A stretch of 54,140 nt of DNA from Chloroflexota bacterium (GCA_031373765.1 JANMNF010000071.1:1-54140); one strand, 5' to 3'. Positions 15,059-36,184 are shown, counted from the first letter of the stretch. Program-made: numbers and translations. The notes: generated by a model not told the origin, from the letters alone.

Positions 15059-15115
15059 CGAGTCCTCCGTTCACGTGGCCATCGAGCGGTCACGTTCCAC
15101 GTGACCGTGTCCTCG

Positions 15116-15170
15116 TTGACGCGACAACTGGGCACGTGCTAGGTTACTGCAATCGGTTGCGCACGGTCAA
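15116..15170. promoter_or_regulatory. Bidirectional promoter with LacI-type operator (site D)
   Basis: Plus strand: TTGACG (15116-15121), 18 nt, TAGGTT (15140-15145), then operator CTGCAATCGGTTGCGCA (15147-15163). Minus strand: TTGACC (15170-15165), 18 nt that are the operator itself, then TAACCT (15146-15141). Confidence 0.65.
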
Positions 15171-15214
15171 TCACGCACGACCGAGTCCCAGGTTGGGTAC
15201 GCGGAGACGACACA

Positions 15215-16636: not shown

Positions 16637-16654
16637 CAGGAGGGTCCCCAACCC

Positions 16655-19524: not shown

Positions 19525-19553
19525 CCGCCAGCCGCCTGGCGATCGCGCTCAGG

Positions 19554-20558
19554 TCAGGGCGTGATGATGATCTTGGTGGCCTGACCTGATCGTAGCTGTG
19601 CGACCCCATCGAGGACCTCGCTCAGGGGCAACACGGCCGACACGATTGGTGCGAGGTTGAGGGTGCCGCTCTCCACGAGGCGAATGGCGGCCGGAAACGT
19701 GAAGTTCGAGATGTAAGAGCCGAGAATTGACAGCCCCTTCTCGGTGATCTCGACCTGATGGATCGGCGGACGCGCCGCTCCGTTCATCCCGAACACGATA
19801 ATCCGCCCGCCCATCCCGGCGGCCTCGATAGCGGGACCGAGGACGCTCCCAACGGCATCGACCACAATGTCGGCGCCACCGGGCAGGATTTCATGGCGCC
19901 GGGCGGCGAATTCGTCCGGCGTGAAGGTGAAGTCCGCCGCGACGGCTTTCGCAACGGCGGCCCTGACAGCGTTCGGCTCGATCACGATGACCGGCCCGGC
20001 GCCCGAGGCTTTGAACACCGCCGCGAACAGACACCCGATCGTGCCGGCACCGATGACGACCACGGATTCTCCTGGTCTGGCGGCCGCTCGATTTGTCCCG
20101 TTCACTACACACGCAAGCGGCTCCACGAGAGCCGCCATCTCGAGTGGTACGTCCTCTGATATCGGGTAGACGGCCGCCGCGGGCGCAATCACGAATTCGG
20201 CAAATGCACCATCCCTGTAGACTCCGAGCGCGCGGATGTTTTCGCAGTTGGCAGGCCGGCCGGCGCGACAGGATGTGCAGGCATTGCACTTCGGATCCGG
20301 GTCGACGACGACGCGCTGACCGACACCGACGCTCGTCGCCGCCTCGCCGACAGCGGTGACGCGGCCCACGAACTCGTGCCCGAGGATTGTGCCTGGCGTC
20401 GCCGGATGACCCGGAGGGACATTGAGGATCTGGAGGTCACTCCCGCACATCCCGCACGCCTCGATGGCGATGAGGACATCATCCGCCTGCTCGACTTGCG
20501 GGCTCGGGCGGTCCTCGAGGCGCAGTTCGCCGTTACCGTGAAAGACGGCGGCACGCAT
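19554..20558 (-). CDS. Zinc-dependent medium-chain alcohol/polyol dehydrogenase
   Basis: ATG at 20558. CGMCGSDL, GHEFVGRV and the structural-Zn cysteines CNACTSCRAG, plus VIGAGTIG Rossmann motif. 334 aa. Confidence 0.85.
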   Translation of the reverse strand: MRAAVFHGNGELRLEDRPSPQVEQADDVLIAIEACGMCGSDLQILNVPPGHPATPGTILGHEFVGRVTAVGEAATSVGVGQRVVVDPDPKCNACTSCRAGRPANCENIRALGVYRDGAFAEFVIAPAAAVYPISEDVPLEMAALVEPLACVVNGTNRAAARPGESVVVIGAGTIGCLFAAVFKASGAGPVIVIEPNAVRAAVAKAVAADFTFTPDEFAARRHEILPGGADIVVDAVGSVLGPAIEAAGMGGRIIVFGMNGAARPPIHQVEITEKGLSILGSYISNFTFPAAIRLVESGTLNLAPIVSAVLPLSEVLDGVAQLRSGQATKIIITP

Positions 20559-21418
20559 CACGTTCCCCTTCGTTTCATCAGACGTCGACCGACTCGCAGG
20601 ACGAGACCGGAGCCAAAGAGCAGGGCGACTGTCGAGAGGAGCAGCACCGTCGCGACGGCGTTCACCTCGGGTGTGACCCCAAACTTGATCTGCGTATAGA
20701 TATACAACGGGAGCGTGACCTGTGGTCCAACGGTAAAGAACGTAATGATGAACTCGTCGATCGAGAGCGTCACGCTGATGAGAGCGCCGGCCACGATCGC
20801 GGGCGAGATGAGCGGCAGGATCACGTGGCGCAACGCCTGGCGCGGGCTGGCTCCGAGGTCGGCCGCCGCCCACTCGAGGCGGTGATCGAAGCCCTGGAGC
20901 CGCGCGGCGACGATCAGGACCACGAACGGCGTCGTGAATACGAGGTGGCCGGCAATCACCGTCAGGAGCGACAGCTCGAGGTCCAGAACCCGACGGAAGA
21001 AGATGAGCATCGCGATGCCCAGGAGGATCCCGGGCAGCATGATCGGCATCGTCGCCAGGATACGGACAGCGTCGGGGTGGCGGATTCCGCCACGGACCAG
21101 AGGGAACGCGGCCATCGTTCCGATCAGGGTCGCCAGGAATGCGACGGCTGCAGCGACGATGATCGAGTTCTTGACCGCCTCGAGCAGCAAGCTGTTGCCT
21201 GCCGCTACTTCGTACCAATGCAAGGTGAGATTGACGATCGGGAGACCTGGGGTGCGCGGCTCGTTGAATGAGAACAGGACGAGGAAGGCGATCGGCACGT
21301 AAAGGAAGACGAGCACGGCGACCGCCCAGAGCCAGAGGACCCAGCGCGTGGGCCGGGCATACGGGCTGACGGGCATCGTCTCCAGCGGATCGATCTGCTT
21401 ACCCACGAGCCACGACAT
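20558..21418 (-). CDS. ABC transporter permease (PotC-like)
   Basis: Six TM segments. EAA-type loop WAAADLGASPRQALRHVILP. Alternative start at 21376. Confidence 0.8.
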   Translation of the reverse strand: MSWLVGKQIDPLETMPVSPYARPTRWVLWLWAVAVLVFLYVPIAFLVLFSFNEPRTPGLPIVNLTLHWYEVAAGNSLLLEAVKNSIIVAAAVAFLATLIGTMAAFPLVRGGIRHPDAVRILATMPIMLPGILLGIAMLIFFRRVLDLELSLLTVIAGHLVFTTPFVVLIVAARLQGFDHRLEWAAADLGASPRQALRHVILPLISPAIVAGALISVTLSIDEFIITFFTVGPQVTLPLYIYTQIKFGVTPEVNAVATVLLLSTVALLFGSGLVLRVGRRLMKRRGT

Positions 21419-22319
21419 CCTCTAGCCGGAGGTACTTGCGGAAGACGACCAGGAGAGCCGTGACGAACACGGCGATGATGATCGCGAACGCCGCACCTTG
21501 AGCGATCTGCGCGCCCCGGAAGAAGTTCACCACCAGATTCGCGATGAGGGAGCCCTGTACGCCGCCTACAAGCGTTGGCGTCAGGAACTCACCCAGAATC
21601 GGGATGAACATGAAAATGCAGGCGGTGATGATCCCGGAGCGAATCTGCGGCACGAGGATGTGCCTAAATGCCTGATCAGGCCGCGCGCCGAGGTCCTGGG
21701 CGGCGTGCAACTGGCTGAAGTCGAACTTCTCGAGCGCTGCGTAGAGTGCCAGCGCGGCGAATGGGAAGTAGACGTAGACAAGAACGATGAACACCCCGAC
21801 GTCGTTGTAGACGAACAGGCGCGACGGTTCGTCGAGGATGCCGACTGCCTGGAGGGCCTGGTTGAGCGCGCCCCGCTCTCCAAGAATCGCCTGCCACGCA
21901 TAGACACGCAGGAGATAGCTCGTCCAGAAGGGCACGATGACCGCGAGCAGGACCAATCGCTGCCGCCGGCGGCTGACGTACCGGACGAGGAAGTAGGTGA
22001 ACGGCACCGCCGCGCCCAGGCCGGCGGCCGTCACCGCCGTTGCCATGAGCATCGTCTTGATGAACGTTCGAATGTAGGTCGGGACGGTGAAGAACTTCAG
22101 GTAGTTATTGAGGTTCCATTCCGGAACCAGATTGAAATCGACGTCGGTTCGCCAGAAGCTGAAGACGACCATGAACGCCATCGGCGCGATGAACAGGAGG
22201 AACAGCGCGATCGCGCCCGGGATGGCGGGTGCGATCCGTCCAAAAGAGCGCGATGGTGCCGCCGATCCGGGCTGGACCAGCGGCACCTCGTTCAGGCTGA
22301 CGCCTGAGGTCTGGTTCAT
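21399..22319 (-). CDS. ABC transporter permease (PotB-like)
   Basis: EAA-type loop HAAQDLGARPDQAFRHILVPQ. Six TM segments. Confidence 0.8.
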   Translation of the reverse strand: MNQTSGVSLNEVPLVQPGSAAPSRSFGRIAPAIPGAIALFLLFIAPMAFMVVFSFWRTDVDFNLVPEWNLNNYLKFFTVPTYIRTFIKTMLMATAVTAAGLGAAVPFTYFLVRYVSRRRQRLVLLAVIVPFWTSYLLRVYAWQAILGERGALNQALQAVGILDEPSRLFVYNDVGVFIVLVYVYFPFAALALYAALEKFDFSQLHAAQDLGARPDQAFRHILVPQIRSGIITACIFMFIPILGEFLTPTLVGGVQGSLIANLVVNFFRGAQIAQGAAFAIIIAVFVTALLVVFRKYLRLEDVVARG

Positions 22320-22345
22320 GGGTGAGGCCGGTTCCCTGACTTCGG

Positions 22346-23464
22346 TCAGGCTCCGAACACCTCGTTGAACGCGTCGATGGCGCCCTGCGTCGATGACCCA
22401 GGGCCCTTGAGGGTCATGGTGTTGACCGTCTCGGGCTTGTTGTAGAGGAACCGGTCAGCGCGGTCCTTCTGGCCCTTGTCCACGAGCAGCTTGTAAGCGG
22501 CCTCGTTGAACAGCGGCCGGCCATACCGGATGAAGTTCTCGGCAATGTGCTCGGCCTGCTCGGCAACTTCCAGGAACGGCTTGAGCAAACTGTTGTTCTT
22601 GCCGCCCTTGACCAGCATCTCCGCGTCCATCCAGCCGACGGTCCCCTCCTTCGGGGTGAAGCCGATGATCTCGGGTCCGCCACCCTCCTTGACCCTTTCC
22701 TCGGCTCCCAGGTTACCGGTCGCGATCCACGCCTCTTCGTTGATCAACGACGTGATGGTCTCCGTGTTCTGTTGGGTCAGTTTGAGGAGGTTCGGCTTGA
22801 GGAGCGTGAGCATCTCCTTTGCCTGCGCAAGCTCCTCATCGGTCATGTTGTAGGGATCCTTGGCGCCGGCGAACTTGGCCATGTAGGCGACAATCTCGAC
22901 CGGCTGGTTCTCGACAACGATATGACCCTTGTACTTGGGGTCGAGCAGCACCTCCCACGAGTCGGGCGGCGTCGTGACGTACTTCGGGTTGTAGTAGAGC
23001 TGGACCGGGGACCAGCCGAACGGATAGCCCAGGTAGCCCTCGGGCTTCTTCCAGATCGAGAAATCGCGCGCGATCGAGTAGAGCTGCTTCGCGACCTGGA
23101 GCTCGTTGATGTCCCAGGCTTCGATGAGACCGTCCTCGAAGTACTTCGGCACCCACAGCGCATCGCCGGAGATCATGTCGAGCTGTCCGCCGACTTCCTT
23201 GACTTTCGTGTAGCCCTCGGAGTTGTCGGCAAGCTCGGTGATGCTCGTCTTGAGCTCCTGGTCCTTGGCGATCGCGGCGAGCTGTTCGTCGTAGTAGTGA
23301 TCGCTCCAGGTCATCCAGTTGAACGTGCCCTTGGTGCTCCCGCCACCGCCGCCGGTAGTACAGGCAGCGGCCAGGCCCCCAAAGGCCACTACGCCACCCA
23401 TGGCTGCCGACGCCTGCAAGAAGCGACGCCGGGATAGATTGTTGTACCTCGCCATTTGATCCAT
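22346..23464 (-). CDS. Periplasmic/lipoprotein substrate-binding protein of a Pot-type (polyamine-like) ABC importer
   Basis: ATG at 23464. Twin-arginine-like LSRRRFLQ followed by lipobox LAAC. The body resembles PotD/PotF-family binding proteins. Confidence 0.75.
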   Translation of the reverse strand: MDQMARYNNLSRRRFLQASAAMGGVVAFGGLAAACTTGGGGGSTKGTFNWMTWSDHYYDEQLAAIAKDQELKTSITELADNSEGYTKVKEVGGQLDMISGDALWVPKYFEDGLIEAWDINELQVAKQLYSIARDFSIWKKPEGYLGYPFGWSPVQLYYNPKYVTTPPDSWEVLLDPKYKGHIVVENQPVEIVAYMAKFAGAKDPYNMTDEELAQAKEMLTLLKPNLLKLTQQNTETITSLINEEAWIATGNLGAEERVKEGGGPEIIGFTPKEGTVGWMDAEMLVKGGKNNSLLKPFLEVAEQAEHIAENFIRYGRPLFNEAAYKLLVDKGQKDRADRFLYNKPETVNTMTLKGPGSSTQGAIDAFNEVFGA

Positions 23465-23466
23465 CG

Positions 23467-24564
23467 CTATGTCCTCGCTTCCGATCCTGCCATGACGATC
23501 GCCGCTGTTGTTGACCACCAGACGCCTACCTCCTCGTCGACATGCCCCTCCGGATCCTGAGACTCAACGTCACCTCCATGAAGTCGATGCACGACGAGGG
23601 CACCTGCCGCCGTGCCGACCGTAACTCGAGTGTGATTCCCCAAGAACGCCATGCCCAGGACTCGTCCCCGAATCGCCGTCGCAGGCGCGCGTTCAATCGG
23701 CGCGATGACGAGCGATTCCGGCCGCAACATCAGCGTCGCGGGTCCATCGATTGCCGTGTCAGGAGCGGGTATCCGCTCCCTGCCTGCGACGAGGAACCAC
23801 GTCTGCAGATCCTCGTGCCGGATCACTCCCTCGATGAAGTTGGATTCGCCGATGAAATCCGCCACGAACCGATCCACGGGCTGGTAATAGACGTCACGCG
23901 GCGTTCCGATCTGGCTTACACGCCCGCCCGACATGACGGCGATGCGCGTTGACATCGAGAGTGCTTCTTCCTGATCGTGCGTGACGAACACGAACGTCGT
24001 GCCAACCTGGCGATGAATCCGCGCGAGTTCAAGCTGCATCTGGTGACGCAACTTGAGGTCAAGTGCGCCCAGGGGCTCGTCGAGAAGGAGTACCGCCGGC
24101 CGTCGTGCCAGCGCCCGAGCCAGCGCGACACGCTGCTGTTGGCCACCCGACAGCTGGGACGGAGCCCGCTGTGCGTGGTCGAGGAGGCCAACGAGATCCA
24201 GGTACTCATCGACCCTCTGACCGACTTCGGCCTTGTTGAGGCCGGCCATGCGCAACCCGAACTCAACGTTCTGGGCCACCGTCATGTGCGGAAATAGGGC
24301 GTAACTCTGGAACACGGTGTTCACGTTCCGCTTGTGGGGCGGCAGGTCATTGACTCGGCGCCCCTCGATCCGCAGCTCTCCGGAACTGAGCGGGATGAAG
24401 CCGCCGATAAGGTTGAGGGTCGTGGTCTTGCCACAGCCGGACGGCCCGAGGAGACAGAAGAACTCGCCGGGTTCGATCTGGAGCGAGACGCCATCGAGCG
24501 CCACGACGTCACCGTAGCGCTTTGTCGCGTCGATCAGCTCGATGGCCGGCTGGGGCTCAGTCAT
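23467..24564 (-). CDS. ABC transporter ATP-binding protein (PotA-like)
   Basis: ATG at 24564. Walker [10 protein letters not shown], signature [15 protein letters not shown], Walker [12 protein letters not shown], and a C-terminal TOBE-like domain. Its start overlaps the lacI-family stop. Confidence 0.9.
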
Positions 24565-25624
24565 GGGCGGCCCCCCCGGCAGCCTGAGAAGCGCGGGAGC
24601 GCGTGCTCTCACGGATGGCCAGCTCAACGGGCAGCACAACGGCCTCCGGCAATTGTCCCGACCGGATCGCATCGACGAGTGAGGAAGCGGCCAGACGTCC
24701 AAGTTCAGTGAGCGGGGTGACCACGGTCGTGAGGCGAGGATTGGACATCTCCGCGAAAGGGATGCCGTCGAAGCCCACCACCGCGACGTCGTCGGGGACA
24801 CGCACGCCGAGCACCCGGAGGGCATCCATCAGGGCGAGGGCCAGCATGTCGTCGTAGCAGATCAGGGCCTCCGGAAGGTCGGCGGCAATCAGTGCGGCGG
24901 TAGGTGCCGGTGTGAGCCAGCCGTCATCCGGGCTCGGGTAGCGATCTGTCCGATGAGCGATTCCGTGCTTCTTCAGCGCCCGCTCGACCGCTTCTCGACG
25001 GACCGTGCTCGATACCAGGCCGCCGCTGCCGACGTACGCGATGTCGCGGCGCCCAGTCTCAACGAGATGATCAACGATCGCCTCAACACCGCTGGCGTCA
25101 TCGGTCAGAATCAACGACGGCTTCGCGAGCCCGGTATCTGGTCCCATCAAACGCTGATCAGGCAGCACGAAGATCATCCGGTCCGGCCGCGCATGCGACC
25201 GGGCTTCGTCGATGGTCATCACGCCGGAGACCACGGCGATCCCGTCAACCGCCTGCTCCGTGAAGACGCGAAGAACGTCCCGCTCCAACGTTGCATCCTG
25301 CATGCCGGTACCAACGATGACTCGATAGCCGCCGGCCAACGCCTCCTGCTCAAATGAGGCCGCAATCTGTCCGTGGAACGGGTCGCTGAGGTCCGGAATG
25401 AGCAGTCCCAGGATCCGGGTCCGTCTTGCGCGGAGGCCGCGCGCTGCGGCGTTCGGGACATACCGCAACTCGACCGCAGCAGCCTTGACGGCGTCGCGCG
25501 TCGGCTCGCTGATCCGTGGGTCGTCCACCAATGCGCGAGACGCGGTCGACCGAGAGACGCCGGCCATTCGGGCGACGTCCTCGAGGCCGACGCGGCGATG
25601 CGGAGTCGGGTCATCGAGAGCCAT
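24557..25624 (-). CDS. LacI-family transcriptional repressor
   Basis: N-terminal HTH VGLEDVARMAGVSRSTASRALV...YVPNAAARGLR plus a periplasmic-binding-protein-like sugar-binding core. Confidence 0.9.
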   Translation of the reverse strand: MALDDPTPHRRVGLEDVARMAGVSRSTASRALVDDPRISEPTRDAVKAAAVELRYVPNAAARGLRARRTRILGLLIPDLSDPFHGQIAASFEQEALAGGYRVIVGTGMQDATLERDVLRVFTEQAVDGIAVVSGVMTIDEARSHARPDRMIFVLPDQRLMGPDTGLAKPSLILTDDASGVEAIVDHLVETGRRDIAYVGSGGLVSSTVRREAVERALKKHGIAHRTDRYPSPDDGWLTPAPTAALIAADLPEALICYDDMLALALMDALRVLGVRVPDDVAVVGFDGIPFAEMSNPRLTTVVTPLTELGRLAASSLVDAIRSGQLPEAVVLPVELAIRESTRSRASQAAGGAAHD

Positions 25625-25641: not shown

Positions 25642-26874
25642 TCACGACAGGTATCTCGAGGCCACGGTTCGGAACGTTTCTGCCCGTTCATGCGCGGTGG
25701 CCTCACCGTCACGCATCCGTAGCCCAAACGGAGCCAGATTCGGATCCTGGACGCCGATCGAGAAGCTCATGGATCGCTCGAGGAGCCGGTCTGTGACAGG
25801 GAGCATGCCAGCCCTGTAGGCGGCCGGCCGGTCATCACTGCATGAGCAATCGAACGGACATCCTCGACCGGTGATGGTGCGTCCCGTGAGGACGTGCTCC
25901 ATGTGGTGGTACACGTGCCAGCCGGATGCCGCCAGCGTGATCGAACCCAGTTCGGCGGTTACAGCGGTAGCGGTCGCGGCGTCGGGAAAGACGACAACGA
26001 GATGCGTGGCGAGGTCGCCGTCCGGGTCTGGCAGCGTTCGGAAACTGATCCCCGGGATCCCTTCGATAACGCTCCGCACGATGTCCCGGTTGGCACGCAG
26101 GTGGTCACGTATTCGATCAAGCCTGCGGACCTGGGCGAGCAGGACGGCCCCTTGAAGTTCGGTCATCCGGAAGTTCAAGCCGAGAAATGGCCGATTGCCG
26201 ACCTCGATGCCACGCCGGTTTGGACTGTGTCCCTGATCGTGCATCGCGAACGCGCGCCGGTAGAAGGCCTCGTCGTCGGTGATGAGCATGCCGCCGTCGC
26301 CACAGGTGATCGTCTTGAACTCGTTGAAGCTGAAAACCCCGGCATCCGCGTGGCCTCCGACCCAACGGCCCCGATAGGTGGCCCCGAACGCCTGCGCAGC
26401 ATCCTCGATGAGCGGCAGCGAGTGGCGCGCCGCGACCGCTTTGAGTTCATCGAGTCGAGCCGGATTGCCCAGCATGTGGACGACGACGATTGCCCTGGTG
26501 CGCGATGTGATCCGCGCCTCGACGTCGGCCGGGTCGAGGTCGAATGACTCGTCGATTTCGGCCAGGACCGGCCGGGCGCGCGCATAGATCACCGAGCTGA
26601 TCGTGGCGACGAAGGTAAAGCCGGGGACGATGACCTCGTCGCCCGGTCCGATTCCGAGTCCGACCAGTGCCAAATACAGGCCGCTCGTGCCTGAATTGAG
26701 GGCCAGCGCGTACTTCGTCTGGGAGAGATCCGCGACGAGTTCCTCGAACCGGCGCACCTTGGCTGGAAACGTGTCGTCGTCGGGTCCGTAGCGCGCGAGG
26801 TGCCCGCTGGCGAGGACTTCGGCCACCTCGGCCAACTCCTCTGGCCCGAGGAGATCGAGTCCTGGACCCGGCAT
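25642..26874 (-). CDS. DegT/DnrJ/EryC1/StrS-family PLP aminotransferase (scyllo-inosose-type aminotransferase candidate)
   Basis: GDEVIVPGFTFVATI, and FSFNEFKTITCGDGGML holding the PLP lysine. ATG at 26874 is preceded by GGGAAGGGG. The track ORF starts at TTG 26883. Confidence 0.8.
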   Translation of the reverse strand: MPGPGLDLLGPEELAEVAEVLASGHLARYGPDDDTFPAKVRRFEELVADLSQTKYALALNSGTSGLYLALVGLGIGPGDEVIVPGFTFVATISSVIYARARPVLAEIDESFDLDPADVEARITSRTRAIVVVHMLGNPARLDELKAVAARHSLPLIEDAAQAFGATYRGRWVGGHADAGVFSFNEFKTITCGDGGMLITDDEAFYRRAFAMHDQGHSPNRRGIEVGNRPFLGLNFRMTELQGAVLLAQVRRLDRIRDHLRANRDIVRSVIEGIPGISFRTLPDPDGDLATHLVVVFPDAATATAVTAELGSITLAASGWHVYHHMEHVLTGRTITGRGCPFDCSCSDDRPAAYRAGMLPVTDRLLERSMSFSIGVQDPNLAPFGLRMRDGEATAHERAETFRTVASRYLS

Positions 26875-26895: not shown

Positions 26896-26944
26896 TGCGC
26901 AACCGATTGCAGGGACGGTAGCATCCGGACCAGACGGGCGTCAA
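26896..26944 (-). promoter_or_regulatory. Internal promoter with LacI-type operator (site A) upstream of the aminotransferase gene
   Basis: Minus strand: TTGACG (26944-26939), 18 nt, TACCGT (26920-26915), 2 nt, then operator CTGCAATCGGTTGCGCA (26912-26896). The ATG follows at 26874. Confidence 0.6.
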
Positions 26945-27012: not shown

Positions 27013-27855
27013 TTATTCGGCGGGAGGCTCTCCTCCGACTGGGATCGCGACAGGCTTGCCAGCCCAGTCTTCGGCCACCCAGATGTAGGCCGGATCAAAT
27101 TTCTGGGTCACTGGTCGCACGTCCCCGCCGAGGAAGTTGAGGTAATAGGCGTTGGTCCCGGGAGCAGTCGCGACCGTGTGATAGCCCTCGTGGACGAGGA
27201 TCAGATCCCCATCCCGTGCGCAGAAGGAGAGATCGAGGTCACCCTCGGGCGAGTAGATCCGCTGGTAAGCGAAGCCGTCACGAGGCTGGAGACGAAAGTA
27301 GTAGGTCTCCTCGTGATACGAGGTCCCATCCTTGCCGTCATGACGGTGAGGCGGAAAGCTCGACCAGTTGCCGCTCGGGGTGATGATCTCGTACGCGATC
27401 AGTCGCTCCGCCGGAAGGCTCAGATCCAGGGTGCCGGTCACGCCTCGGCTGACGTTCGCACCTCCACGGACAGCAGTCGCGAGCTCCGCCGGAGTGATCA
27501 GCCGCGCCGGGTAGCGCCCTTCCGCAGGCACCCCGCCGGTCGCGAATTCGAACGGTGTGATCGCCGTGATCGCATATGCCGTCCGCGGCGGTAGGTAGGC
27601 CACATGCGGCAGGTCGGTGAAGACGTCGCGTCGCGAGACCGTGTGGTCCTGGCCGGCAAACTCGAAGCGCGCAGTCCCCGCGAGCGGGACCAAGGCAACC
27701 TCATTCGGCCCGCTTTCGGCCCGCAGTCGTTCGCCCGCCGCGAGGGCCACGACGCTGGACGAGACGTATTTCCAGTCGACGGTCTCAGGCGTGATCTCGA
27801 GCAGCGTGCCTGGGCCGGCGGCCGAGACCAGATGCCGGAGCGGTTTCGTGGTCAT
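27013..27855 (-). CDS. iolB: 5-deoxy-glucuronate isomerase IolB
   Basis: GNWSSFPPHRHD...EETYYFRLQP..GFAYQRIY...VHEGYHTV.APG..AYYLNFL is the cupin signature of IolB. Confidence 0.85.
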   Translation of the reverse strand: MTTKPLRHLVSAAGPGTLLEITPETVDWKYVSSSVVALAAGERLRAESGPNEVALVPLAGTARFEFAGQDHTVSRRDVFTDLPHVAYLPPRTAYAITAITPFEFATGGVPAEGRYPARLITPAELATAVRGGANVSRGVTGTLDLSLPAERLIAYEIITPSGNWSSFPPHRHDGKDGTSYHEETYYFRLQPRDGFAYQRIYSPEGDLDLSFCARDGDLILVHEGYHTVATAPGTNAYYLNFLGGDVRPVTQKFDPAYIWVAEDWAGKPVAIPVGGEPPAE

Positions 27856-28799
27856 GCCGACCTCCTCGTCGTCGTGTCCTGGAGCTCGAGTCTGGCTCTG
27901 TCCGCGATTCGGGCCGCCGTGAGCCCGTGCTTCTCGAGCAGGAATTCATTGGGAGCCGATTCGCCCCAGCAATCCTCAAGTCCGATCCGGACGAGGCGCC
28001 TGGGCAGATGGGCTGTCAGGATTTCGGCGATCAGACCACCAAGGCCGCCGATGACCGAGTGTTCCTCCACGCTCACCACGAGGCTCGAAGGGTCGATGGC
28101 CGCGACGATCGTCTCGACATCGACGGGCTTGATCGAGGGGACATGGAGGACGCCGGCAGACACGCCGGAGGACTCCAGGATGACGGCAGCCTCCAGGCAA
28201 CGCGACGTCTGTGGGCCGGTCGATATCAGCAATACGTCCGTCCCTTCCCGGAGTTGATAAACACGGCCCGGTTCAAACCGATACGTGCTGTCGAACAACT
28301 CGGGCGCCGGGTCCCGCGTCAATCGAAGGTAGACGGGACCATCGAAGTCGGTTGCCCAGCGGGTCATCGCCGCGCACTCGACCTCATCGGCCGGTGCGAG
28401 GACCGTGAGCCCGGGCATCGCCCGCATGATCGCCAGGTCCTGAATGTCCTGATGCGTCTTCCCGGTGAGCCCGGTCAACAACCCTCCATAGCCGGCACCG
28501 ACCTTGACGTTGGCATGCGGCTGCGCCACGAGCAGACGGATCTGGTCGAGCGCGCGATGGGTCAGGAAGACCGCGAACGACGACAGCCAGGGGACATAGC
28601 CCATCGACGCCAGCCCGGCCGCTACTCCGACCATGTTCTGCTCGGCTATCCCCATCTGGAGGAAGCGCTCGGGATGCCGTCGGGCGAAGATGTCCGCCTT
28701 GGTCGACGTGGCAAGGTCTCCGTCGAGCACGAGGATGTCCGAATTCGTATCGCCGAGCTCAGTGAGCGTCTCGCCCCAGACCTCGCGCTGCGATCTCAC
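27852..28799 (-). CDS. Transketolase, C-terminal (pyrimidine-binding) subunit
   Basis: GTG 28799 overlaps the upstream stop (GTGA). FLQMGIAEQNMVGVAAGLA...GKTHQDIQDLAIMRAMPG. 315 aa. Confidence 0.85.
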   Translation of the reverse strand: MRSQREVWGETLTELGDTNSDILVLDGDLATSTKADIFARRHPERFLQMGIAEQNMVGVAAGLASMGYVPWLSSFAVFLTHRALDQIRLLVAQPHANVKVGAGYGGLLTGLTGKTHQDIQDLAIMRAMPGLTVLAPADEVECAAMTRWATDFDGPVYLRLTRDPAPELFDSTYRFEPGRVYQLREGTDVLLISTGPQTSRCLEAAVILESSGVSAGVLHVPSIKPVDVETIVAAIDPSSLVVSVEEHSVIGGLGGLIAEILTAHLPRRLVRIGLEDCWGESAPNEFLLEKHGLTAARIADRARLELQDTTTRRSA

Positions 28800-29689
28800 T
28801 CGGGGCCGCCTGGGGCATCGATGTCCAGCTCGAGGCGGGCAGCCTCCAACTCGTCGGAGGTCGGGACGCGAGCGTGCCAACCATGCTGACCCTCGGTGAA
28901 GGACAGGCCTCGCCCCTTGATCGTCCGTGCCAAAATCGCCGTCGGCCGACTGTCCGGGGTCGCCTCGGCCGCCGCTGCGCACGCGCCGATGATGGCGCCG
29001 AAATCGTGGCCGTCGATTTCGATCACCCGCCAGCCGGATCCCTCGAACATGGCGCGCAGCATGCCTCCAGGGAATGGCTCACTGCGGTCACCGCGAGCAC
29101 CGGGCTCGTCCTGGAGCGACCAGCCGAATTGTTGGAGGCCGTTGTCATCGACGATCACAATCAGGTGGCCCAGTCGATAGCGAGCAGCCACAAGCGCTGA
29201 CTCCCAGACCATTCCCTCCTGACACTCGCCGTCACCAAGCATCACGTAGGTGTGGAAGTCACGACCTCGGAGCCGTGCCCCGAGTGCGATCCCGACCCCC
29301 ACCGCAAGGCCCTGCCCGAGCGATCCGGTGGACGCGTCGAGTCCCGGCAGGCGGGTCATGTCCGGATGGCCCTGCAGCCGCGAGTCACCTTTGTCGAACG
29401 TGGCTAGCTCCTCAATCGGGAAATAGCCGCGTTGAGCCATCACCGCGTACAGACCCACGGCCGAGTGGCCTTTCGACAGGATGAACCGGTCGCGGTCGGC
29501 CCAATCGGGATCCTCGGCGCGGATTTCCAGCACCCGGAAGTACAGAGCGACCAGCAACTCCATCGCCGACATCGGCCCGCCGACATGGCCGGCCCCACTT
29601 CCGGTCACCGTACGCATCACGAGCCAGCGACCCAGTCGCGCCCGAGCCTCGAGGTCGGCGTGCGGAGAGGGCTCGCTCGCCTTCGTCAC
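28796..29689 (-). CDS. Transketolase, N-terminal (ThDP-binding) subunit
   Basis: GTG 29689 overlaps the iolD stop (GTGA). GHVGGPMSAMEL...SKGHSAVGLYA...GSLGQGL...LGDGECQEGMVWE. 297 aa. Confidence 0.85.
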   Translation of the reverse strand: MTKASEPSPHADLEARARLGRWLVMRTVTGSGAGHVGGPMSAMELLVALYFRVLEIRAEDPDWADRDRFILSKGHSAVGLYAVMAQRGYFPIEELATFDKGDSRLQGHPDMTRLPGLDASTGSLGQGLAVGVGIALGARLRGRDFHTYVMLGDGECQEGMVWESALVAARYRLGHLIVIVDDNGLQQFGWSLQDEPGARGDRSEPFPGGMLRAMFEGSGWRVIEIDGHDFGAIIGACAAAAEATPDSRPTAILARTIKGRGLSFTEGQHGWHARVPTSDELEAARLELDIDAPGGPE

Positions 29690-31566
29690 CCGAGTCGCTG
29701 CCGGGAACGTGCCTGGTCGTACCCGTCGCGCGCCGCCCGGATCCCCGGCTGGGCGCTCACCTCGGCTGCGGGAACGTCCCACCATCCCTCGAAGCCGGGA
29801 ACGCGCTGCTCCGGATCGACAGGCACGACGATGACCGTGACTCGATCGGCCCGTTCGGCCTCGGCGAGCGCGGCATGCAATTCGGCAGCCGTGCGGGCGA
29901 AGATGGCCAGGGCGCCCATCGCCTCCGCGTGCTGCCGAAAGTCCACTGGCACGTACGGCCCTGTGAGGCGGTTGCGGGCCTTGTCGCGGAAGCGAAGGTC
30001 GTTCCCGAAGTCGGGCACGCCGACCGAGCGCGCGAGGCCCGTGATGCACCCGAATCCGTGGTTGTCGAGGAGGACGATGGTGAATTTCAGGCCCTCCGCG
30101 ACCGCTGTCACGATTTCCGAGTTCATCATCAGGTACGACCCGTCACCGACGATCACGGCCACCCGTCGCTCGGGTTCCGCAAACGCCACGCCGAGCCCTG
30201 CGGCGACCTCGTAACCCATGCATGAGTAGCCGTACTCCACGTGGTACGACTTCGGGTCCTCAGCGCGCCACAGTTTGAGTAGGTCACCGGGGAGGCTCCC
30301 GGCGGCGCAGATCACCGTGGCCTTGCCTCCGAGGGCGTCGTTGACGATGCCGATCACCTCGGCCTGACCGAGATCCGCGTCCTTCGGGCCTTCCGCCCGG
30401 AGGGCCGTCACGATGCCGTCCCACTCCACCTTGAGCTGCCCGATCCGCGCGCGGAATGCCTCGTTTGTGCCTCGATAGCCCGCGGCATCGAGTGCGGTCG
30501 AGAGTGCGGCGAGGGCCTCGCGCGCATCGGCGACAAGCGGGATCGCCCGCAGCTTGTGGGCGTCCATGGGCGTGACGTTGACCCCGACGAACTTGACGTC
30601 GGCGTGCTGGAACGTGGTTCTCGACGACGTGACAAAGTCGCCCATTCGGGTACCAACACACAGGACCAGATCTGCTTCGCGGGCAAGGTGATTCGCGGCC
30701 AGGCCCCCATTCGCGCCGATCGGACCCACCATCATCGGATGGTTCCAGGGCAGGGCGCCCTTCCCCGCCTGCGTCTCGGCAACCGGGATGTTGAACCGCG
30801 ACGCAAGGGCGTCGAGTTCATGGGTCGCCTCCGAGTAGATGGTGCCGCCACCGGTGATGATCACCGGCGTCTTCGCTCGCATCAGAAGCTGAACCACCTC
30901 GGCGACGACCGAAGGTTCCGGAACCGGCCTGCGAACCCTCCAGATCCGACGCTCGAAGAACGATTCGGGCCAGTCGAACGCCTCGCTCTGGACGTCCTCC
31001 GGCAGCGACACGGTCACGGCGCCGGTCTCTGCCGGGTCGGTCAGCACGCGGAATGCCTCGGGTAGGCTGGCGATCAGTTGGTCGGGACGTGAAATCCGGT
31101 CGAAGAACCGGGACACTGGCCGGAATGCGTCACTCGCGCTGACATCGTGCTCGCTTGGATGCTCGACCTGTTGCAGGACGGGATCCGAGGACCGGTTGGC
31201 GAAGTAGTCGCTCGGAAGGAGCAGGACGGGGACGCGGTTGACGGTCGCTGCAGCGGCGCCCGTGATCATGTTTGTGGCGCCGGGACCAATCGACGACGTG
31301 CAGGCGAAGGTCTGGAGACGGTTCCGATGGCGCGCGTACGCCGCAGCAATGTGGACCTGCCCCTGCTCGTTCTGGGGTCGGTAGTACGGCATCTCCTCCG
31401 CGTCGCCGAGCTCCTCGAGGGCCTGCCCGAGGCCGGCGACATTGCCGTGTCCGAAAATCCCCCAGACGCCGGCAATGAAGCGCTGTTGCCGGTCGTCACG
31501 CTCCACGTACTGCTTGGCCAGGAACCGGACGACGGCCTGGCCGGTGGTCAGTCGAACAGTCGTCAT
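29686..31566 (-). CDS. iolD: IolD paralog 2: ThDP-dependent trihydroxycyclohexane-1,2-dione acylhydrolase
   Basis: VRLTTGQAVVRFL...IFGHGNVAGLGQALEE...GPGATNMITGAA...VGDGSYLM. 626 aa. Confidence 0.85.
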   Translation of the reverse strand: MTTVRLTTGQAVVRFLAKQYVERDDRQQRFIAGVWGIFGHGNVAGLGQALEELGDAEEMPYYRPQNEQGQVHIAAAYARHRNRLQTFACTSSIGPGATNMITGAAAATVNRVPVLLLPSDYFANRSSDPVLQQVEHPSEHDVSASDAFRPVSRFFDRISRPDQLIASLPEAFRVLTDPAETGAVTVSLPEDVQSEAFDWPESFFERRIWRVRRPVPEPSVVAEVVQLLMRAKTPVIITGGGTIYSEATHELDALASRFNIPVAETQAGKGALPWNHPMMVGPIGANGGLAANHLAREADLVLCVGTRMGDFVTSSRTTFQHADVKFVGVNVTPMDAHKLRAIPLVADAREALAALSTALDAAGYRGTNEAFRARIGQLKVEWDGIVTALRAEGPKDADLGQAEVIGIVNDALGGKATVICAAGSLPGDLLKLWRAEDPKSYHVEYGYSCMGYEVAAGLGVAFAEPERRVAVIVGDGSYLMMNSEIVTAVAEGLKFTIVLLDNHGFGCITGLARSVGVPDFGNDLRFRDKARNRLTGPYVPVDFRQHAEAMGALAIFARTAAELHAALAEAERADRVTVIVVPVDPEQRVPGFEGWWDVPAAEVSAQPGIRAARDGYDQARSRQRLG

Positions 31567-32663
31567 CGAGTTCCTCCCCGCAACGTGTCTGGATTCGGAA
31601 GCATCACATCGTCCACCGTTCTGACCAGATCCCAGTACGAGGCGATGAACCCGCGAAGCGTACGGACCGTCGCGCCATACGAATCGAACTCATTCGGGGC
31701 GAGCCCGTCCTCGTCATAGGCGCGCCGGAAGTCGGGAAGCCGGTCAAGAAGTTCATCGACGAGTCGAAGGTCGACAGGTTCGTCAAAGCGCGGCCGGACC
31801 TCGACACGCGACCCATTGAAGCGACGCTGCCAAACCGGCGGAATCGTCAGGATGATGTCGCCTCCGATCACCTCGGACCAGTGAAGATGGTGGCGATACG
31901 CCGCGGCCAGGAGGCGGGTCCGATACCCGCGCGCTCGATAGATCGGCGCCGCCTTCTTGAGAACAGCGATGCCAGCACGGTCGAGGGCGCCGGGGTCGAC
32001 GATGATGTTGTCCCGCTCGGCAACGACCTTCATCCAGTCGTCGAGCCTGCCAACCATCAGCGTGCAAACAGGGCTCATCGTGCTGACGTCGTGGCCGGCT
32101 GCGACACGTCGACGGAGCCCCGCTTCAACGGCTTCGCCGACGGCGAGGGCTTGACTGAGGGTGAAGCTGACGGTCGCGTTGATCGAGACGCCCGCGGCCG
32201 TGGCTTCCTCGATCGCCGTGATCCCCGCTAGCGTCGCCGGGAACTTGACCTGCATGTTCGGAGCCAATTTCTGGAACCGAAGGCCCTGCTCCAGCATGCG
32301 CTCAGCAGACCCGTGGAAGGTCGGATTGGTCTGAATCGATAGGCGGCCTTTGAGGCCGCGCTCACGATCGAAAATCGGCTCCAGCAGTGCCGCGGCACCC
32401 GCTGCCATCGTTTCGATCAACCACCAGGCGATCTCGACGTCGGTCGCGGACCGTTTGGCCGCCTGGAGGGCCAGGATCCTCGGATGCCAGACGTCCCACT
32501 CGCTACGTAGGACTTCGCCCACGATGGTCGGATTGGACGTCGCGCCGACGCCACCATGGTCGATCGCGTACTTCAGATCCGCCAGAGAACACGAGTCGTT
32601 CCAGAAGTCGGTCGGTGTCGTGCGCACCATTCGGGCAAGCGGGCTTTCCGTGCTCACATCCAT
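31563..32663 (-). CDS. Transaldolase-family protein
   Basis: ATG 32663 is preceded by GGAGGGG. GATSNPTI, RLSIQTNP, and VKFPAT with the Schiff-base lysine. 366 aa, the long actinobacterial type. Confidence 0.8.
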   Translation of the reverse strand: MDVSTESPLARMVRTTPTDFWNDSCSLADLKYAIDHGGVGATSNPTIVGEVLRSEWDVWHPRILALQAAKRSATDVEIAWWLIETMAAGAAALLEPIFDRERGLKGRLSIQTNPTFHGSAERMLEQGLRFQKLAPNMQVKFPATLAGITAIEEATAAGVSINATVSFTLSQALAVGEAVEAGLRRRVAAGHDVSTMSPVCTLMVGRLDDWMKVVAERDNIIVDPGALDRAGIAVLKKAAPIYRARGYRTRLLAAAYRHHLHWSEVIGGDIILTIPPVWQRRFNGSRVEVRPRFDEPVDLRLVDELLDRLPDFRRAYDEDGLAPNEFDSYGATVRTLRGFIASYWDLVRTVDDVMLPNPDTLRGGTR

Positions 32664-32706: not shown

Positions 32707-32755
32707 TTGCGCAACCGATTGCAGAACGGTAGCATCGGCCAAAGGCGCACGTCAA
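32707..32755. promoter_or_regulatory. Bidirectional promoter with LacI-type operator (site B)
   Basis: Plus strand: TTGCGC (32707-32712), 17 nt, TAGCAT (32730-32735). Minus strand: TTGACG (32755-32750), 18 nt, TACCGT (32731-32726). The operator TGCGCAACCGATTGCAG lies at 32708-32724. The two -10 boxes overlap by 2 bp (ACGGTAGCAT). Confidence 0.65.
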
Positions 32756-36155: not shown

Positions 36156-36184
36156 TTGCGCAACCGATTGCAGGGCGGTAGGAT
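36156..36184 (+). promoter_or_regulatory. Promoter with LacI-type operator (site C)
   Basis: TTGCGC (36156-36161), 17 nt, TAGGAT (36179-36184). Operator TGCGCAACCGATTGCAG at 36157-36173. GGAG (36208-36211) lies 8 nt before GTG 36220. Confidence 0.6.

What the first reader, a model, noticed from the sequence alone, without database searches (positions are those of the whole stretch)
27013..32663. IolD and IolB are coupled to a split transketolase and a transaldolase instead of the canonical IolC kinase and IolJ aldolase
In the established myo-inositol pathway, IolE, IolD and IolB produce 2-deoxy-5-keto-gluconate. IolC then phosphorylates it and IolJ cleaves it. No PfkB-type kinase or class II aldolase is present anywhere in this 54-kb window. 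Instead iolD2 and iolB are translationally coupled (ATGA/GTGA overlaps) to a transaldolase-family gene and to both halves of a split transketolase, under the same operator. This suggests the C6 keto-acid, or a related intermediate, is handled by C2/C3 transferase chemistry or enters the pentose-phosphate network. That would be a non-canonical lower pathway.
Basis: inference. Interest (0 to 1): 0.6.

Follow-up and report, generated by a model that had tools for sequence, protein, structure and literature searches.

The report
Kinase-free end of inositol breakdown
A soil Chloroflexota genome joins the ring-opening enzymes of inositol breakdown to an unusual transaldolase and an unusual two-part transketolase instead of the textbook kinase and aldolase, and the same swap recurs in at least five bacterial groups, pointing to an apparently undescribed way of finishing this common pathway.

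Summary
On the minus strand, TAL-like (32663-31563), IolD2, TK-N, TK-C and IolB (27855-27013) overlap by ATGA/GTGA. They lie behind a 16-nt operator found four times in this window and nowhere else in the assembly. The 92%-complete MAG has no IolC over cut-off, no DUF2090 and no IolJ. It does have a housekeeping TK, a short Tal and a true IolA elsewhere.

Both operon enzymes belong to specialised clades. In the TAL-like family the catalytic Glu is Gln and Phe178 is Met. In the TK clade the phosphate-orienting His is Tyr and Asp469 is Thr/Ser/Ala.

Among 301 genomes of the phylum, 29 carry IolD and IolB. Seventeen of these have IolC and none of those has the TAL-like or this TK. Eleven of the other 12 have one or both. 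Of the 80 best TAL-like loci, from five bacterial groups, 37 hold IolB, 36 IolD, 25 IolA and 2 IolC.

Best reading: unphosphorylated 2-deoxy-5-keto-gluconate is cleaved by C3 and/or C2 transfer, like the sulfoquinovose TAL/TK routes. This is inferred, with no biochemistry.

Earlier notes of this scan report the same theme on other genomes. I found no paper describing it.

The parts
32708..32723 (-). LacI-type operator TGCAATCGGTTGCGCA, just downstream of a TAnnnT -10-like box, in front of the TAL-like gene
   Evidence: Exact 16-mer found four times in the window against 0.56 expected. No site with 1 mismatch or fewer elsewhere in the genome. Sequence context shown.
31563..32663 (-). TAL-like protein, 366 aa. 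It is a divergent transaldolase-family enzyme with Gln in place of the catalytic Glu96 (TalB numbering) and Met in place of Phe178. Proposed to cleave 2-deoxy-5-keto-gluconate into malonate semialdehyde plus a transferred C3 unit.
   Evidence: PF00923, 118 bits. Only 101.6 bits to NCBIfam tal, cut-off 367. Residue mapping. Model pLDDT 93.6; best PDB match 3r5e, TM 0.80. Neighbourhoods.
29686..31566 (-). IolD2, the ThDP-dependent ring-opening hydrolase (3D-(3,5/4)-trihydroxycyclohexane-1,2-dione acylhydrolase)
   Evidence: TIGR04377, 888 bits against cut-off 715.
28796..29689 (-). Split transketolase, N-terminal (PP-domain) subunit, 297 aa
   Evidence: PF00456, 160.6 bits. His26/66/100/261 and metal ligands Asp155/Asn185 (E. 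coli numbering) are conserved.
27852..28799 (-). Split transketolase, C-terminal (Pyr plus C domain) subunit, 315 aa. Clade signature: His461 to Tyr, Glu468 to Leu, Asp469 to Thr.
   Evidence: PF02779 and PF02780. 291 bits to the C. hydrogenoformans split TK 6yaj. Signature shown.
27013..27855 (-). IolB, 5-deoxy-glucuronate isomerase. It is the only KduI/IolB-family gene in the genome.
   Evidence: TIGR04378, 238.8 bits against cut-off 205. Single PF04962 hit in the genome.
26896..26911 (-). Second copy of the operator, in front of the aminotransferase-LacI-ABC-ZnADH gene string
25642..26874 (-). DegT/DnrJ/EryC1-family aminotransferase in the same regulon. It suggests an amino-cyclitol may be the true substrate.
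   Evidence: PF01041, 278 bits.
24557..25624 (-). LacI-family repressor, the presumed binder of the operator
   Evidence: PF00356 and PF13377.
19554..24561 (-). ABC importer (TOBE ATPase, SBP_bac_6 binding protein, two permeases) and a Zn-dependent alcohol dehydrogenase. The same block precedes the TAL-like gene in relatives.
   Evidence: Pfam and NCBIfam. Synteny Hyd868-ABC-LLM-ZnADH-IolE-like-TAL in L009 and L075-L079.
14129..18553 (.). Third operator unit. IolE-like gene (14129-15070, minus strand) diverges from an aldehyde dehydrogenase (about 15218-16636, plus strand) and IolD1 (16655-18553, plus strand). The operator lies at 15148-15163.
   Evidence: IolD1 TIGR04377, 785.9 bits. IolE model 152 bits, below the 290 cut-off. 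ALDH is generic. Operator.

Best explanation
The operon encodes a kinase-independent lower branch of inositol (or amino-cyclitol) catabolism.

IolD2 opens the ring to 5-deoxy-glucuronate. IolB isomerises that to 2-deoxy-5-keto-D-gluconate (DKG). DKG is a D-threo 2-ketose whose terminal carboxylate can stand in for the phosphate of fructose-6-P or xylulose-5-P.

DKG is then cleaved without prior phosphorylation.
- The TAL-like enzyme forms a Schiff base on Lys140. It releases malonate semialdehyde and passes the C3 (dihydroxyacetone) unit to an aldehyde acceptor, most simply glyceraldehyde-3-P, giving fructose-6-P.
- In parallel or as an alternative, the specialised split transketolase removes the C2 unit (to glyceraldehyde-3-P, giving xylulose-5-P). 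This leaves the C4 acid-aldehyde 3-hydroxy-4-oxobutanoate, which an aldehyde dehydrogenase could oxidise to malate.
- Malonate semialdehyde goes to acetyl-CoA through the IolA encoded on contig C106.

Shown: gene identities, translational coupling, the shared operator, absence of IolC/IolJ from the assembly, clade-specific active-site changes, and the comparative distribution.

Inferred: the substrates, the acceptors, and whether the two enzymes act in parallel.
For: The operon, its overlaps and the operator are confirmed.

Canonical lower-pathway genes were not found in the own genome.
- The best IolC-model hit is 140 bits against a cut-off of 300.
- There is no DUF2090.
- The only PF01116 hit scores 44 bits and matches no NCBIfam family.
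- Both DeoC-family hits are true deoC.

The genome has a housekeeping full-length TK (488 bits) and a short Tal (201.6 bits) elsewhere.

A true IolA/MMSDH lies on C106 (719 bits). It is 84.6% identical to the IolA that sits next to TAL-IolB in a genome of the same family.

All five aldehyde dehydrogenases found adjacent to the TAL-like gene in other genomes are CoA-acylating MMSDH/IolA (571-618 bits, cut-off 448.5). This points to malonate semialdehyde as the TAL product.

Phylum sample of 301 genomes: 29 have both IolD and IolB.
- 17 have IolC, and none of these has the TAL-like or the TK clade.
- 12 lack IolC, and 11 of these have the TAL-like and/or the TK clade.

The 80 best TAL-like loci come from Chloroflexota, Actinomycetota, Acidobacteriota, Spirochaetales and Myxococcales.
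- IolB is present in 37 and directly adjacent in 26.
- IolD is present in 36, IolA in 25 and IolC in 2.

Five genomes from other groups that carry IolB-TAL-IolD clusters have no IolC over cut-off.

Genome G287 (99% complete) has the operon TK-N, TK-C, IolG, IolB, IolD, IolG, IolE, flanked by rpsB and tsf. It has no TAL-like and no IolC-model hit at E<=1e-50.

The TK clade keeps its catalytic residues. It changes the phosphate-orienting His to Tyr and Asp469 to Thr/Ser/Ala in 25 of 25 members.

The TAL-like family keeps Lys, Asn35, Asn154, Thr156, Arg181 and Arg228. It has Gln for Glu96 and Met for Phe178 in 41 of 41 sequences.

Precedent: the sulfo-TAL, sulfo-TK and bifurcated sulfoquinovose pathways cleave an unphosphorylated anionic ketose in the same two ways. 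Their transketolase also changes the same His (RSFHR to RAFDR; PMC11659671).
Against: There are no enzyme data for any member of either clade.

The MAG is 92% complete, so iolC and iolJ could lie in the missing part.

Two of about 41 iol-linked TAL-like loci also carry IolC. L086 additionally has a DeoC/DUF2090 aldolase. L095 has no other aldolase. The TAL-like enzyme is therefore not strictly an IolC substitute.

The TAL-like gene and the TK clade also occur in genomes with no IolB or IolD. Examples are G253, G058, G088 and G221, the last being in the same genus as the window. The module is therefore not specific to inositol.

Gln in place of the catalytic Glu96 departs from known transaldolases. 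It resembles fructose-6-P aldolase, so the enzyme may release free dihydroxyacetone instead of transferring it.

The aminotransferase and the amine-type importer in the regulon suggest the true substrate may be an amino- or deoxy-cyclitol. In that case the intermediates would differ from 5-deoxy-glucuronate and DKG.

Asp469 normally contacts the C4-OH of the donor, and DKG has that OH. The Thr substitution is therefore only loosely explained.
Confidence: 0.6

Rival explanations
1. The TAL-like enzyme is a class I aldolase that replaces only IolJ. DKG would still be phosphorylated, by IolC where it is present or by an unrecognised kinase. The TAL-like protein would then split DKG-6-phosphate into DHAP and malonate semialdehyde.
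For: IolC lies in the same cluster as the TAL-like gene in L086 and L095, and L095 has no other aldolase. Gln at the Glu96 position is the fructose-6-P-aldolase state. The adjacency to IolA fits this reading equally well.
Against: 39 of about 41 iol-linked TAL-like loci have no IolC.

No IolC over cut-off was found in any of the 8 TAL+IolD+IolB+ genomes of the phylum sample, or in 5 genomes of other groups.

No kinase belongs to this window's regulon.

L086 has its own DeoC/DUF2090 aldolase.

Known TAL/FSA enzymes use donors with a free C1 hydroxyl (my own knowledge).
Confidence: 0.15
2. The route is kinase-free, but the TAL-like enzyme is a true aldolase of the FSA type and not a transferase. 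It would split DKG into free dihydroxyacetone and malonate semialdehyde.
For: Gln replaces the catalytic Glu in 41 of 41 family members, as in fructose-6-P aldolase. TalB E96Q and E96Q/F178Y variants exist as solved structures of engineered enzymes. In 16 of 80 loci a protein with a PEP-utilising mobile domain lies next to the TAL-like gene, and it could serve a phosphotransfer step.
Against: The position that carries the FSA acid-base Tyr is Met, not Tyr. No Dak1-type dihydroxyacetone kinase was found in this genome. No PEP-utiliser gene of the kind found next to the TAL-like gene in other genomes lies next to this operon.
Confidence: 0.15
3. The transketolase and transaldolase are ordinary pentose-phosphate enzymes, co-expressed to absorb carbon from the pathway. 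The canonical iolC and iolJ would lie in the unassembled 8% of the genome.
For: The MAG is 92% complete in 360 contigs. The Pfam families are those of the standard enzymes.
Against: Separate housekeeping TK and Tal genes exist.

Both operon proteins carry clade-wide active-site substitutions.

More complete relatives with the same genes also lack IolC. These include G079 at 97%, G024 at 100% and G287 at 99% in 2 contigs.

The distribution is complementary with IolC.
Confidence: 0.05
4. The operon works on a modified cyclitol, amino- or deoxy-substituted. The IolD2 and IolB products would then be analogues of 5-deoxy-glucuronate and DKG, and the changed TK and TAL pockets would be fitted to those analogues. 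This overlaps with the best explanation and is not exclusive of it.
For: The same regulon holds a DegT-family aminotransferase, an SBP_bac_6 (polyamine-type) importer, an 868-aa hydrolase, two IolD paralogues and several IolE/IolG-like genes. The aminotransferase recurs next to IolD-TK in L036 and L037. Asp469 to Thr in the TK is the kind of change that, in engineered E. coli TK, favours aldehydes lacking the 2-hydroxyl (my own knowledge).
Against: Most TAL-like iol clusters in other groups look like plain IolG-E-D-B-A sets with no aminotransferase. IolD2 and IolB both score above the equivalog cut-offs.
Confidence: 0.2

Closest known systems
Canonical myo-inositol catabolism (Bacillus subtilis / Corynebacterium type: IolG, IolE, IolD, IolB, IolC, IolJ, IolA)
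   Same: IolD and IolB score above the equivalog cut-offs. IolE- and IolG-like genes are in the regulon. IolA is present in the genome. A LacI-type repressor controls the genes.
   Different: No IolC kinase, and no IolJ or DUF2090 aldolase, was found in the genome. A TAL-family enzyme and a split transketolase occupy their place in the operon.
Sulfoquinovose sulfo-TAL, sulfo-TK and bifurcated TK/TAL pathways (Bacillus/Priestia, Clostridium sp. MSTE9, Faecalicatena sp. DSM22707; PMC11659671)
   Same: An unphosphorylated ketose carrying a terminal anionic group is cleaved by a transaldolase (C3 transfer) and/or a split transketolase (C2 transfer). The transketolase alters the phosphate-orienting His. 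The Faecalicatena candidate F2 is described with D23, K140, Q111, N162 and T201. These are the same residue numbers as the invariant positions of the TAL-like family here.
   Different: The substrate would be a carboxylate (DKG), not a sulfonate. The TK motif here is RSFYR, not RAFDR, and Asp469 is also changed. The characterised SF-transaldolase (BmSF-TAL) is a short-type enzyme with the normal Glu. No sulfoquinovose-pathway partner gene was recognised in the window (not searched for specifically). Membership in those systems is not claimed.
Split transketolase of Carboxydothermus hydrogenoformans (PDB 6yaj/6yak)
   Same: It has the same two-subunit architecture. TK-C scores 291 bits and aligns over residues 4-299. 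The catalytic residues are kept.
   Different: The C. hydrogenoformans enzyme has the canonical THAG...GEDG segment. The window's clade has GY.G...G(L/Q/M/K)(T/S/A)G.
Transaldolase B and fructose-6-phosphate aldolase of E. coli (TAL/FSA family)
   Same: TIM-barrel fold. The Schiff-base Lys, Asn35, Asn154, Thr156, Ser176, Arg181 and Arg228 equivalents are all present.
   Different: Glu96 is Gln, as in FSA. Phe178 (Tyr in FSA) is Met, which matches neither enzyme. Ser226 is Ala. The protein is a long form with its own C-terminal helices. The best PDB sequence match is only 74.6 bits.

Membership tests
Transaldolase/FSA family (PF00923) | Pfam TAL_FSA match above the gathering score, and a TIM-barrel transaldolase fold | tested here: met
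   118.4 bits against cut-off 27. Model pLDDT 93.6. Foldseek top hits are long-type transaldolases, TM 0.76-0.80.
Transaldolase/FSA family (PF00923) | Schiff-base lysine (TalB Lys132) | tested here: met
   Lys140 in NMQVKFPAT aligns with the catalytic Lys. It is invariant in 41 of 41 and 24 of 24 family members.
Canonical transaldolase (TalB-type catalysis) | Catalytic Glu96 and Phe178 (TalB numbering) | tested here: not met
   Gln111 and Met203, invariant in the family.
Fructose-6-phosphate aldolase (FSA-type catalysis) | Gln at the Glu96 position together with a catalytic Tyr at the Phe178 position | tested here: not met
   Gln is present, but the Tyr position holds Met.
Transketolase, split type | Transketolase_N on one subunit and Pyr plus C domains on the other. 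ThDP/metal ligands and catalytic His residues present. | tested here: met
   Pfam domains. 291 bits to 6yaj. His26/66/100/261/473, Asp155, Asn185 and Glu411 conserved.
Sugar-phosphate transketolase (canonical substrate pocket) | Phosphate-orienting Arg-Ser-(Phe)-His-Arg set, and Asp469 contacting the sugar hydroxyl | tested here: not met
   Arg358, Ser385 and Arg520 are kept. His461 is Tyr and Asp469 is Thr/Ser/Ala in 25 of 25 clade members. The housekeeping TK and a canonical split TK (L044) keep His and Asp.
Canonical iol pathway | IolD and IolB equivalogs | tested here: met
   888 bits (cut-off 715) and 238.8 bits (cut-off 205).
Canonical iol pathway | IolC 5-dehydro-2-deoxygluconokinase | tested here: not met
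   Best hit 140 bits against cut-off 300. The other PfkB genes are a KDG-kinase-like gene, a ribokinase and generic kinases, none under the operator. The genome is 92% complete.
Canonical iol pathway | IolJ class II aldolase, or a DUF2090/DeoC-type DKGP aldolase | tested here: not met
   PF01116 gives one 44-bit hit that matches no NCBIfam family. PF09863 gives nothing. Both PF01791 hits are deoC equivalogs.
Canonical iol pathway | IolA (CoA-acylating malonate-semialdehyde dehydrogenase) | tested here: met
   TIGR01722, 719 bits on C106, outside the window and without the operator.
Sulfoglycolytic sulfo-TAL / sulfo-TK pathways | Sulfoquinovosidase, SQ isomerase, sulfonate reductase/dehydrogenase and exporter genes; activity on 6-deoxy-6-sulfofructose | not tested
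   No such genes were recognised in the window during annotation, but they were not searched for specifically. The resemblance is one of mechanism only.

The most novel reading that the evidence does not exclude
A widespread, undescribed end of inositol catabolism in which 2-deoxy-5-keto-gluconate is never phosphorylated. A Gln-type transaldolase-family enzyme would give malonate semialdehyde plus a transferred C3 unit. A Tyr/Thr-type split transketolase would give a C4 acid-aldehyde plus a transferred C2 unit. Either or both would replace IolC and IolJ in Chloroflexota, Actinomycetota, Acidobacteriota, Spirochaetales and Myxococcales. This would be a carboxylate counterpart of the sulfo-TAL/sulfo-TK routes.
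Probability: 0.55. Interest if true: 0.8.

Novelty: new variant of a known kind. Interest (0 to 1): 0.7.

Why it matters
Inositols are abundant plant and soil carbon sources. The IolC/IolJ route is the lower pathway that genome annotation and metabolic models usually assume.

About half of the best 80 loci sit in iol clusters that lack IolC.

If these enzymes do finish the pathway, many soil and sediment bacteria now scored as having an incomplete inositol pathway can in fact use inositol.

It would also give two new enzyme specificities for unphosphorylated acidic ketoses: a natural Gln-type transaldolase-family enzyme and a natural His-to-Tyr / Asp-to-Thr transketolase. Both are of interest for biocatalysis, because transketolase position 469 is a classic engineering target.

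The claim can be tested directly with four or five purified proteins.

Tried and rejected
(1) I first suspected that IolD2 might be an Xsc-type sulfoacetaldehyde acetyltransferase and the locus a sulfoquinovose cluster. I rejected this. The IolD model scores 888 bits and the Xsc model 151 bits.

(2) I considered the Thermotoga-type inositol route through IolM/IolN/IolO. The Zn-dependent dehydrogenase reaches only 208 bits against a cut-off of 450 for IolM, and I did not pursue it.

(3) I first used TIGR04378 hits alone to define genomes with the inositol pathway. That failed. Many borderline 'IolB' genes (about 205-240 bits) stand alone with no IolD or IolE nearby. I therefore redefined the set as IolD+IolB+ genomes.

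(4) I looked for the operator near IolA, near the PfkB kinases and elsewhere in the genome. No site with 1 mismatch or fewer turned up.

(5) Seven full-text literature searches combined iolB, iolD, inositol, 5-deoxyglucuronate and malonate semialdehyde with transaldolase or transketolase. None found a paper describing the linkage. Subscription-only papers are not covered.

(6) My gene calls for 18658-19548(-) and 40861-41853(-) gave no Pfam hit, probably because I chose the wrong strand or frame. These two genes are not used in the argument.

(7) Annotation of the IolB-less TAL/TK loci showed a GntR regulator, a Mo-hydroxylase and a PEP-utiliser protein. It did not reveal their substrate.

(8) The Fisher test is not quoted as evidence, because related genomes are not independent.


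Full report
**What is there.**

- TAL-family gene: 32663-31563, 366 aa.
- IolD2: 31566-29686.
- Transketolase N-terminal subunit: 29689-28796, 297 aa.
- Transketolase C-terminal subunit: 28799-27852, 315 aa.
- IolB: 27855-27013.

IolD2 and IolB exceed NCBIfam's equivalog cut-offs, at 888 against 715 bits and 238.8 against 205 bits. The transaldolase-family protein is divergent. It scores 118 bits to Pfam TAL_FSA but only 101.6 bits to the best NCBIfam transaldolase model, whose cut-off is 367.

The four junctions read ATGA, GTGA, GTGA and ATGA. The starts are fixed by where the domain matches begin.

The 16-mer TGCAATCGGTTGCGCA sits just downstream of a TAnnnT box in front of the TAL-like gene. 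It occurs exactly at three more promoters in the window. Four matches are found against 0.56 expected. It occurs nowhere else in the 2.6-Mb assembly at 1 mismatch or fewer.

The regulon also holds a DegT-family aminotransferase, the LacI repressor, an SBP_bac_6-type ABC importer and a Zn-dependent dehydrogenase. It further holds a second IolD with an aldehyde dehydrogenase, several IolE- and IolG-like genes, and an 868-aa protein with no Pfam match.

**Are the canonical genes elsewhere?**

The window is contig C109 of a MAG that is 92% complete in 360 contigs.
- The IolC model finds nothing above 140 bits (cut-off 300).
- The PfkB genes that exist are a KDG-kinase-like fragment, a ribokinase and two generic kinases.
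- DUF2090 gives no hit.
- The class II aldolase family gives one 44-bit hit that matches no NCBIfam family.
- Both DeoC-family hits are true deoxyribose-phosphate aldolases.

A true CoA-acylating malonate-semialdehyde dehydrogenase (IolA, 719 bits) lies on contig C106.

The genome also has a full-length housekeeping transketolase (488 bits) and a short Tal/Fsa (201.6 bits) on other contigs. The operon copies are therefore extra paralogues.

**The two enzymes are specialised.**

I aligned them to E. coli TktA and TalB, taken from NC_000913.3. The roles I give to individual residues come from my own knowledge of those enzymes.

The split transketolase keeps its ThDP/metal ligands and its catalytic histidines. 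It keeps Arg358, Ser385, Arg520, His473 and Glu411. It has Tyr for His461, and the GEDG segment has become G(L/Q/M/F/K)(T/S/A)G, so Asp469 is Thr, Ser or Ala. This holds in all 25 clade members I examined. The housekeeping TK and a canonical split TK in locus L044 keep His and Asp.

TK-C is otherwise close to the characterised split TK of C. hydrogenoformans (291 bits), which has the canonical residues.

The TAL-like family keeps the Schiff-base Lys, Asn35, Asn154, Thr156, Ser176, Arg181 and Arg228. It has Gln for the catalytic Glu96, Met for Phe178 and Ala for Ser226, in 41 of 41 sequences. It is therefore neither a canonical transaldolase (Glu/Phe) nor an FSA-type aldolase (Gln/Tyr).

The predicted structure is confident (pLDDT 93.6). 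It matches long-type transaldolases best (3r5e, TM 0.80).

**Distribution within the phylum.**

I ran five searches over the same 301 genomes and cross-tabulated them.

| Group among the 29 genomes with IolD (at cut-off) and an IolB hit | Genomes | With TAL-like or the TK clade |
|---|---|---|
| IolC present (16 over cut-off, plus one at 294.7 bits next to IolB) | 17 | 0 |
| IolC absent | 12 | 11 |

Of the 11, three genomes have both (this one included), five have only the TAL-like and three have only the TK clade. The one exception is a fragmented assembly.

The IolC group and the TAL/TK group each span several families. Related genomes are not independent, so I give counts and no probability.

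Genome G287 is 99% complete in two contigs. Its operon reads TK-N, TK-C, IolG, IolB, IolD, IolG, IolE and is flanked by rpsB and tsf. It has no TAL-like and no IolC-model hit at E<=1e-50. The transketolase alone may therefore be sufficient.

G065 and G200 have TAL-IolD-IolB with no transketolase of this clade, G200 also with IolA. The TAL-like enzyme alone may therefore also be sufficient.

**Distribution beyond the phylum.**

The 80 best loci come from Chloroflexota, Actinomycetota (Gaiellaceae, Solirubrobacterales, Acidimicrobiia), Acidobacteriota (Terriglobia, Bryobacterales, Vicinamibacterales), Spirochaetales and Myxococcales.

Within 10 kb of the TAL-like gene:

| Gene | Loci out of 80 |
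|---|---|
| IolB | 37 (directly adjacent in 26) |
| IolD | 36 |
| IolE-like | 36 |
| IolA | 25 |
| This TK clade | 7 |
| IolC | 2 |

Typical operons read LacI-IolB-TAL-IolD-IolA-IolE-IolG, for example L096 from Terriglobia.

All five TAL-adjacent aldehyde dehydrogenases that I scored are MMSDH/IolA, at 571-618 bits against a cut-off of 448.5. The window genome's own IolA is 84.6% identical to one of them. This is the strongest pointer to malonate semialdehyde as the TAL product.

Five genomes from other groups that carry such clusters have no IolC above 177 bits.

**Other contexts of the module.**

In 16 of 80 loci the TAL-like gene diverges from a 590-640-aa protein whose only recognised domain is a PEP-utilising mobile domain. 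Often IolA, a 122-aa cupin and the TK pair follow the TAL-like gene, and neither IolB nor IolD is present. A genome of the same genus as the window (G221) is of this kind.

In five loci the order is 868-aa hydrolase, ABC importer, LLM oxidoreductase, Zn-dependent dehydrogenase, IolE-like, TAL.

The TK clade often follows a small cupin. In the window it is coupled to IolB, which is itself a cupin-fold isomerase. The recurring logic of isomerase followed by transketolase fits a transketolase that acts on the isomerase product. This is inference.

**Mechanism.**

The following is inference from established chemistry. IolJ, a homologue of class II FBP aldolase, cleaves phosphorylated DKG to DHAP and malonate semialdehyde. 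DKG therefore has the D-threo 2-ketose configuration that both transaldolase and transketolase need in a donor. Its carboxylate lies roughly where the phosphate of xylulose-5-P or fructose-6-P would be.

C3 transfer would give malonate semialdehyde, with fructose-6-P if glyceraldehyde-3-P is the acceptor. C2 transfer would give 3-hydroxy-4-oxobutanoate, with xylulose-5-P, and an aldehyde dehydrogenase could take that product to malate.

The retained arginines in both enzymes could bind the carboxylate. In the TK, loss of the two acidic residues at 468 and 469 and the longer Tyr at 461 would suit an anionic group that sits closer to the reaction centre.

I make no claim that ATP is saved. F6P still costs one ATP to reach trioses.

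**Comparison with what is known.**

The closest precedent is sulfoglycolysis. 6-Deoxy-6-sulfofructose is an unphosphorylated anionic ketose. It is cleaved by a transaldolase, by a split transketolase, or by both in the bifurcated pathway of Faecalicatena (PMC11659671).

That paper reports that SF-transketolases change the phosphate-orienting RSFHR motif to RAFDR, which is the same His that is Tyr here. It also reports that a second, SQ-induced transaldolase candidate (F2) has D23, K140, Q111, N162 and T201. Those are exactly the numbers of the invariant or near-invariant residues in my alignment of the TAL-like family. F2 is therefore very probably a member of this family. I could not check its sequence.

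Seven full-text searches found no paper that links iolB or iolD with a transaldolase or transketolase.

Earlier notes of this scan describe the same theme on other genomes. They cover a spirochaete with TAL plus a CoA-acylating dehydrogenase, an Anaerolineae transketolase route to malate, a 33-kb cyclitol locus, and an operon with TAL and IolC. I treat these as leads. Their existence does not enter my score.

**Caveats and rivals.**

Two iol-linked loci also carry IolC. L086 has a complete IolC plus DeoC/DUF2090 aldolase set as well. L095 has no other aldolase. The TAL-like enzyme could therefore be an IolJ substitute that acts on phosphorylated DKG (rival, 0.15).

The Gln at the catalytic position allows an FSA-like aldolase that releases dihydroxyacetone (rival, 0.15). 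Against that, the Tyr position holds Met and the genome has no Dak1.

The aminotransferase and the amine-type importer suggest that the real substrate here may be an amino- or deoxy-cyclitol (0.2, not exclusive).

Ordinary pentose-phosphate enzymes together with unassembled iolC and iolJ seem unlikely (0.05).

**Verdict.**

This is a new variant of a known kind of pathway. It is widespread, testable, and undescribed as far as I could find.

Noticed in passing
L030-L033, L094, L097, L101, L108, L110, L113-L116, L119, L121, L122, L124, L126, L144, L146: In genomes with no IolB or IolD nearby, the TAL-like gene diverges from a 590-640-aa protein whose only recognised domain is a C-terminal PEP-utilising mobile domain. 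It is often followed by IolA, a 122-aa cupin and the Tyr/Thr-type split transketolase. The substrate is unknown. The cupin may play the part of IolB.
   Followed up: partly
L086:303-13314: In an Ardenticatenaceae MAG, an iol cluster (IolE, IolA, DeoC/DUF2090 aldolase, IolB, IolC, IolD, TAL-like) is flanked by URO-D/MtaA-like, B12-binding and pterin-binding genes. These look like a corrinoid-dependent O-demethylase set and may serve methylated inositols such as pinitol.
   Followed up: no
phylum sample: 27 of 56 IolD-positive Chloroflexota genomes have no IolB hit at all. They include nine genomes of one genus and four complete genomes with two IolD copies. Most of the 27 also lack IolC, the TAL-like gene and this TK clade. 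These IolD enzymes probably feed a different, unknown downstream route.
   Followed up: no
window 31563-32663; alignment A1: The TAL-like family's invariant residues D23, Q111, K140, N162 and T201 carry the same numbers as those reported for the second, sulfoquinovose-induced transaldolase candidate (F2) of Faecalicatena sp. DSM22707 (PMC11659671). Its function was left open there.
   Followed up: partly
L054-L068 (for example G143:C1, G151:C6, G178:C3): Many genes that score 205-240 bits on the IolB equivalog model stand alone, with no IolD or IolE nearby. The cut-off seems to admit KduI/IolB-family proteins from other pathways.
   Followed up: partly
window 36157-36172 and 36220-40729: The fourth operator copy precedes the 868-aa gene that has no Pfam match, followed by a TIM-barrel gene and a GFO-family oxidoreductase gene. 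In L009 and L075-L079, orthologues of the 868-aa gene diverge from an ABC-LLM-ZnADH-IolE-like-TAL string. The hydrolase and the TAL-like gene are therefore linked even where IolB and IolD are missing.
   Followed up: partly
G000:C118:9607-10428: An uncharacterised PfkB kinase whose best model is IolC, but at only 138-140 bits (cut-off 300). It is not near any iol gene or operator. It is the only conceivable stand-in kinase in the assembly.
   Followed up: partly
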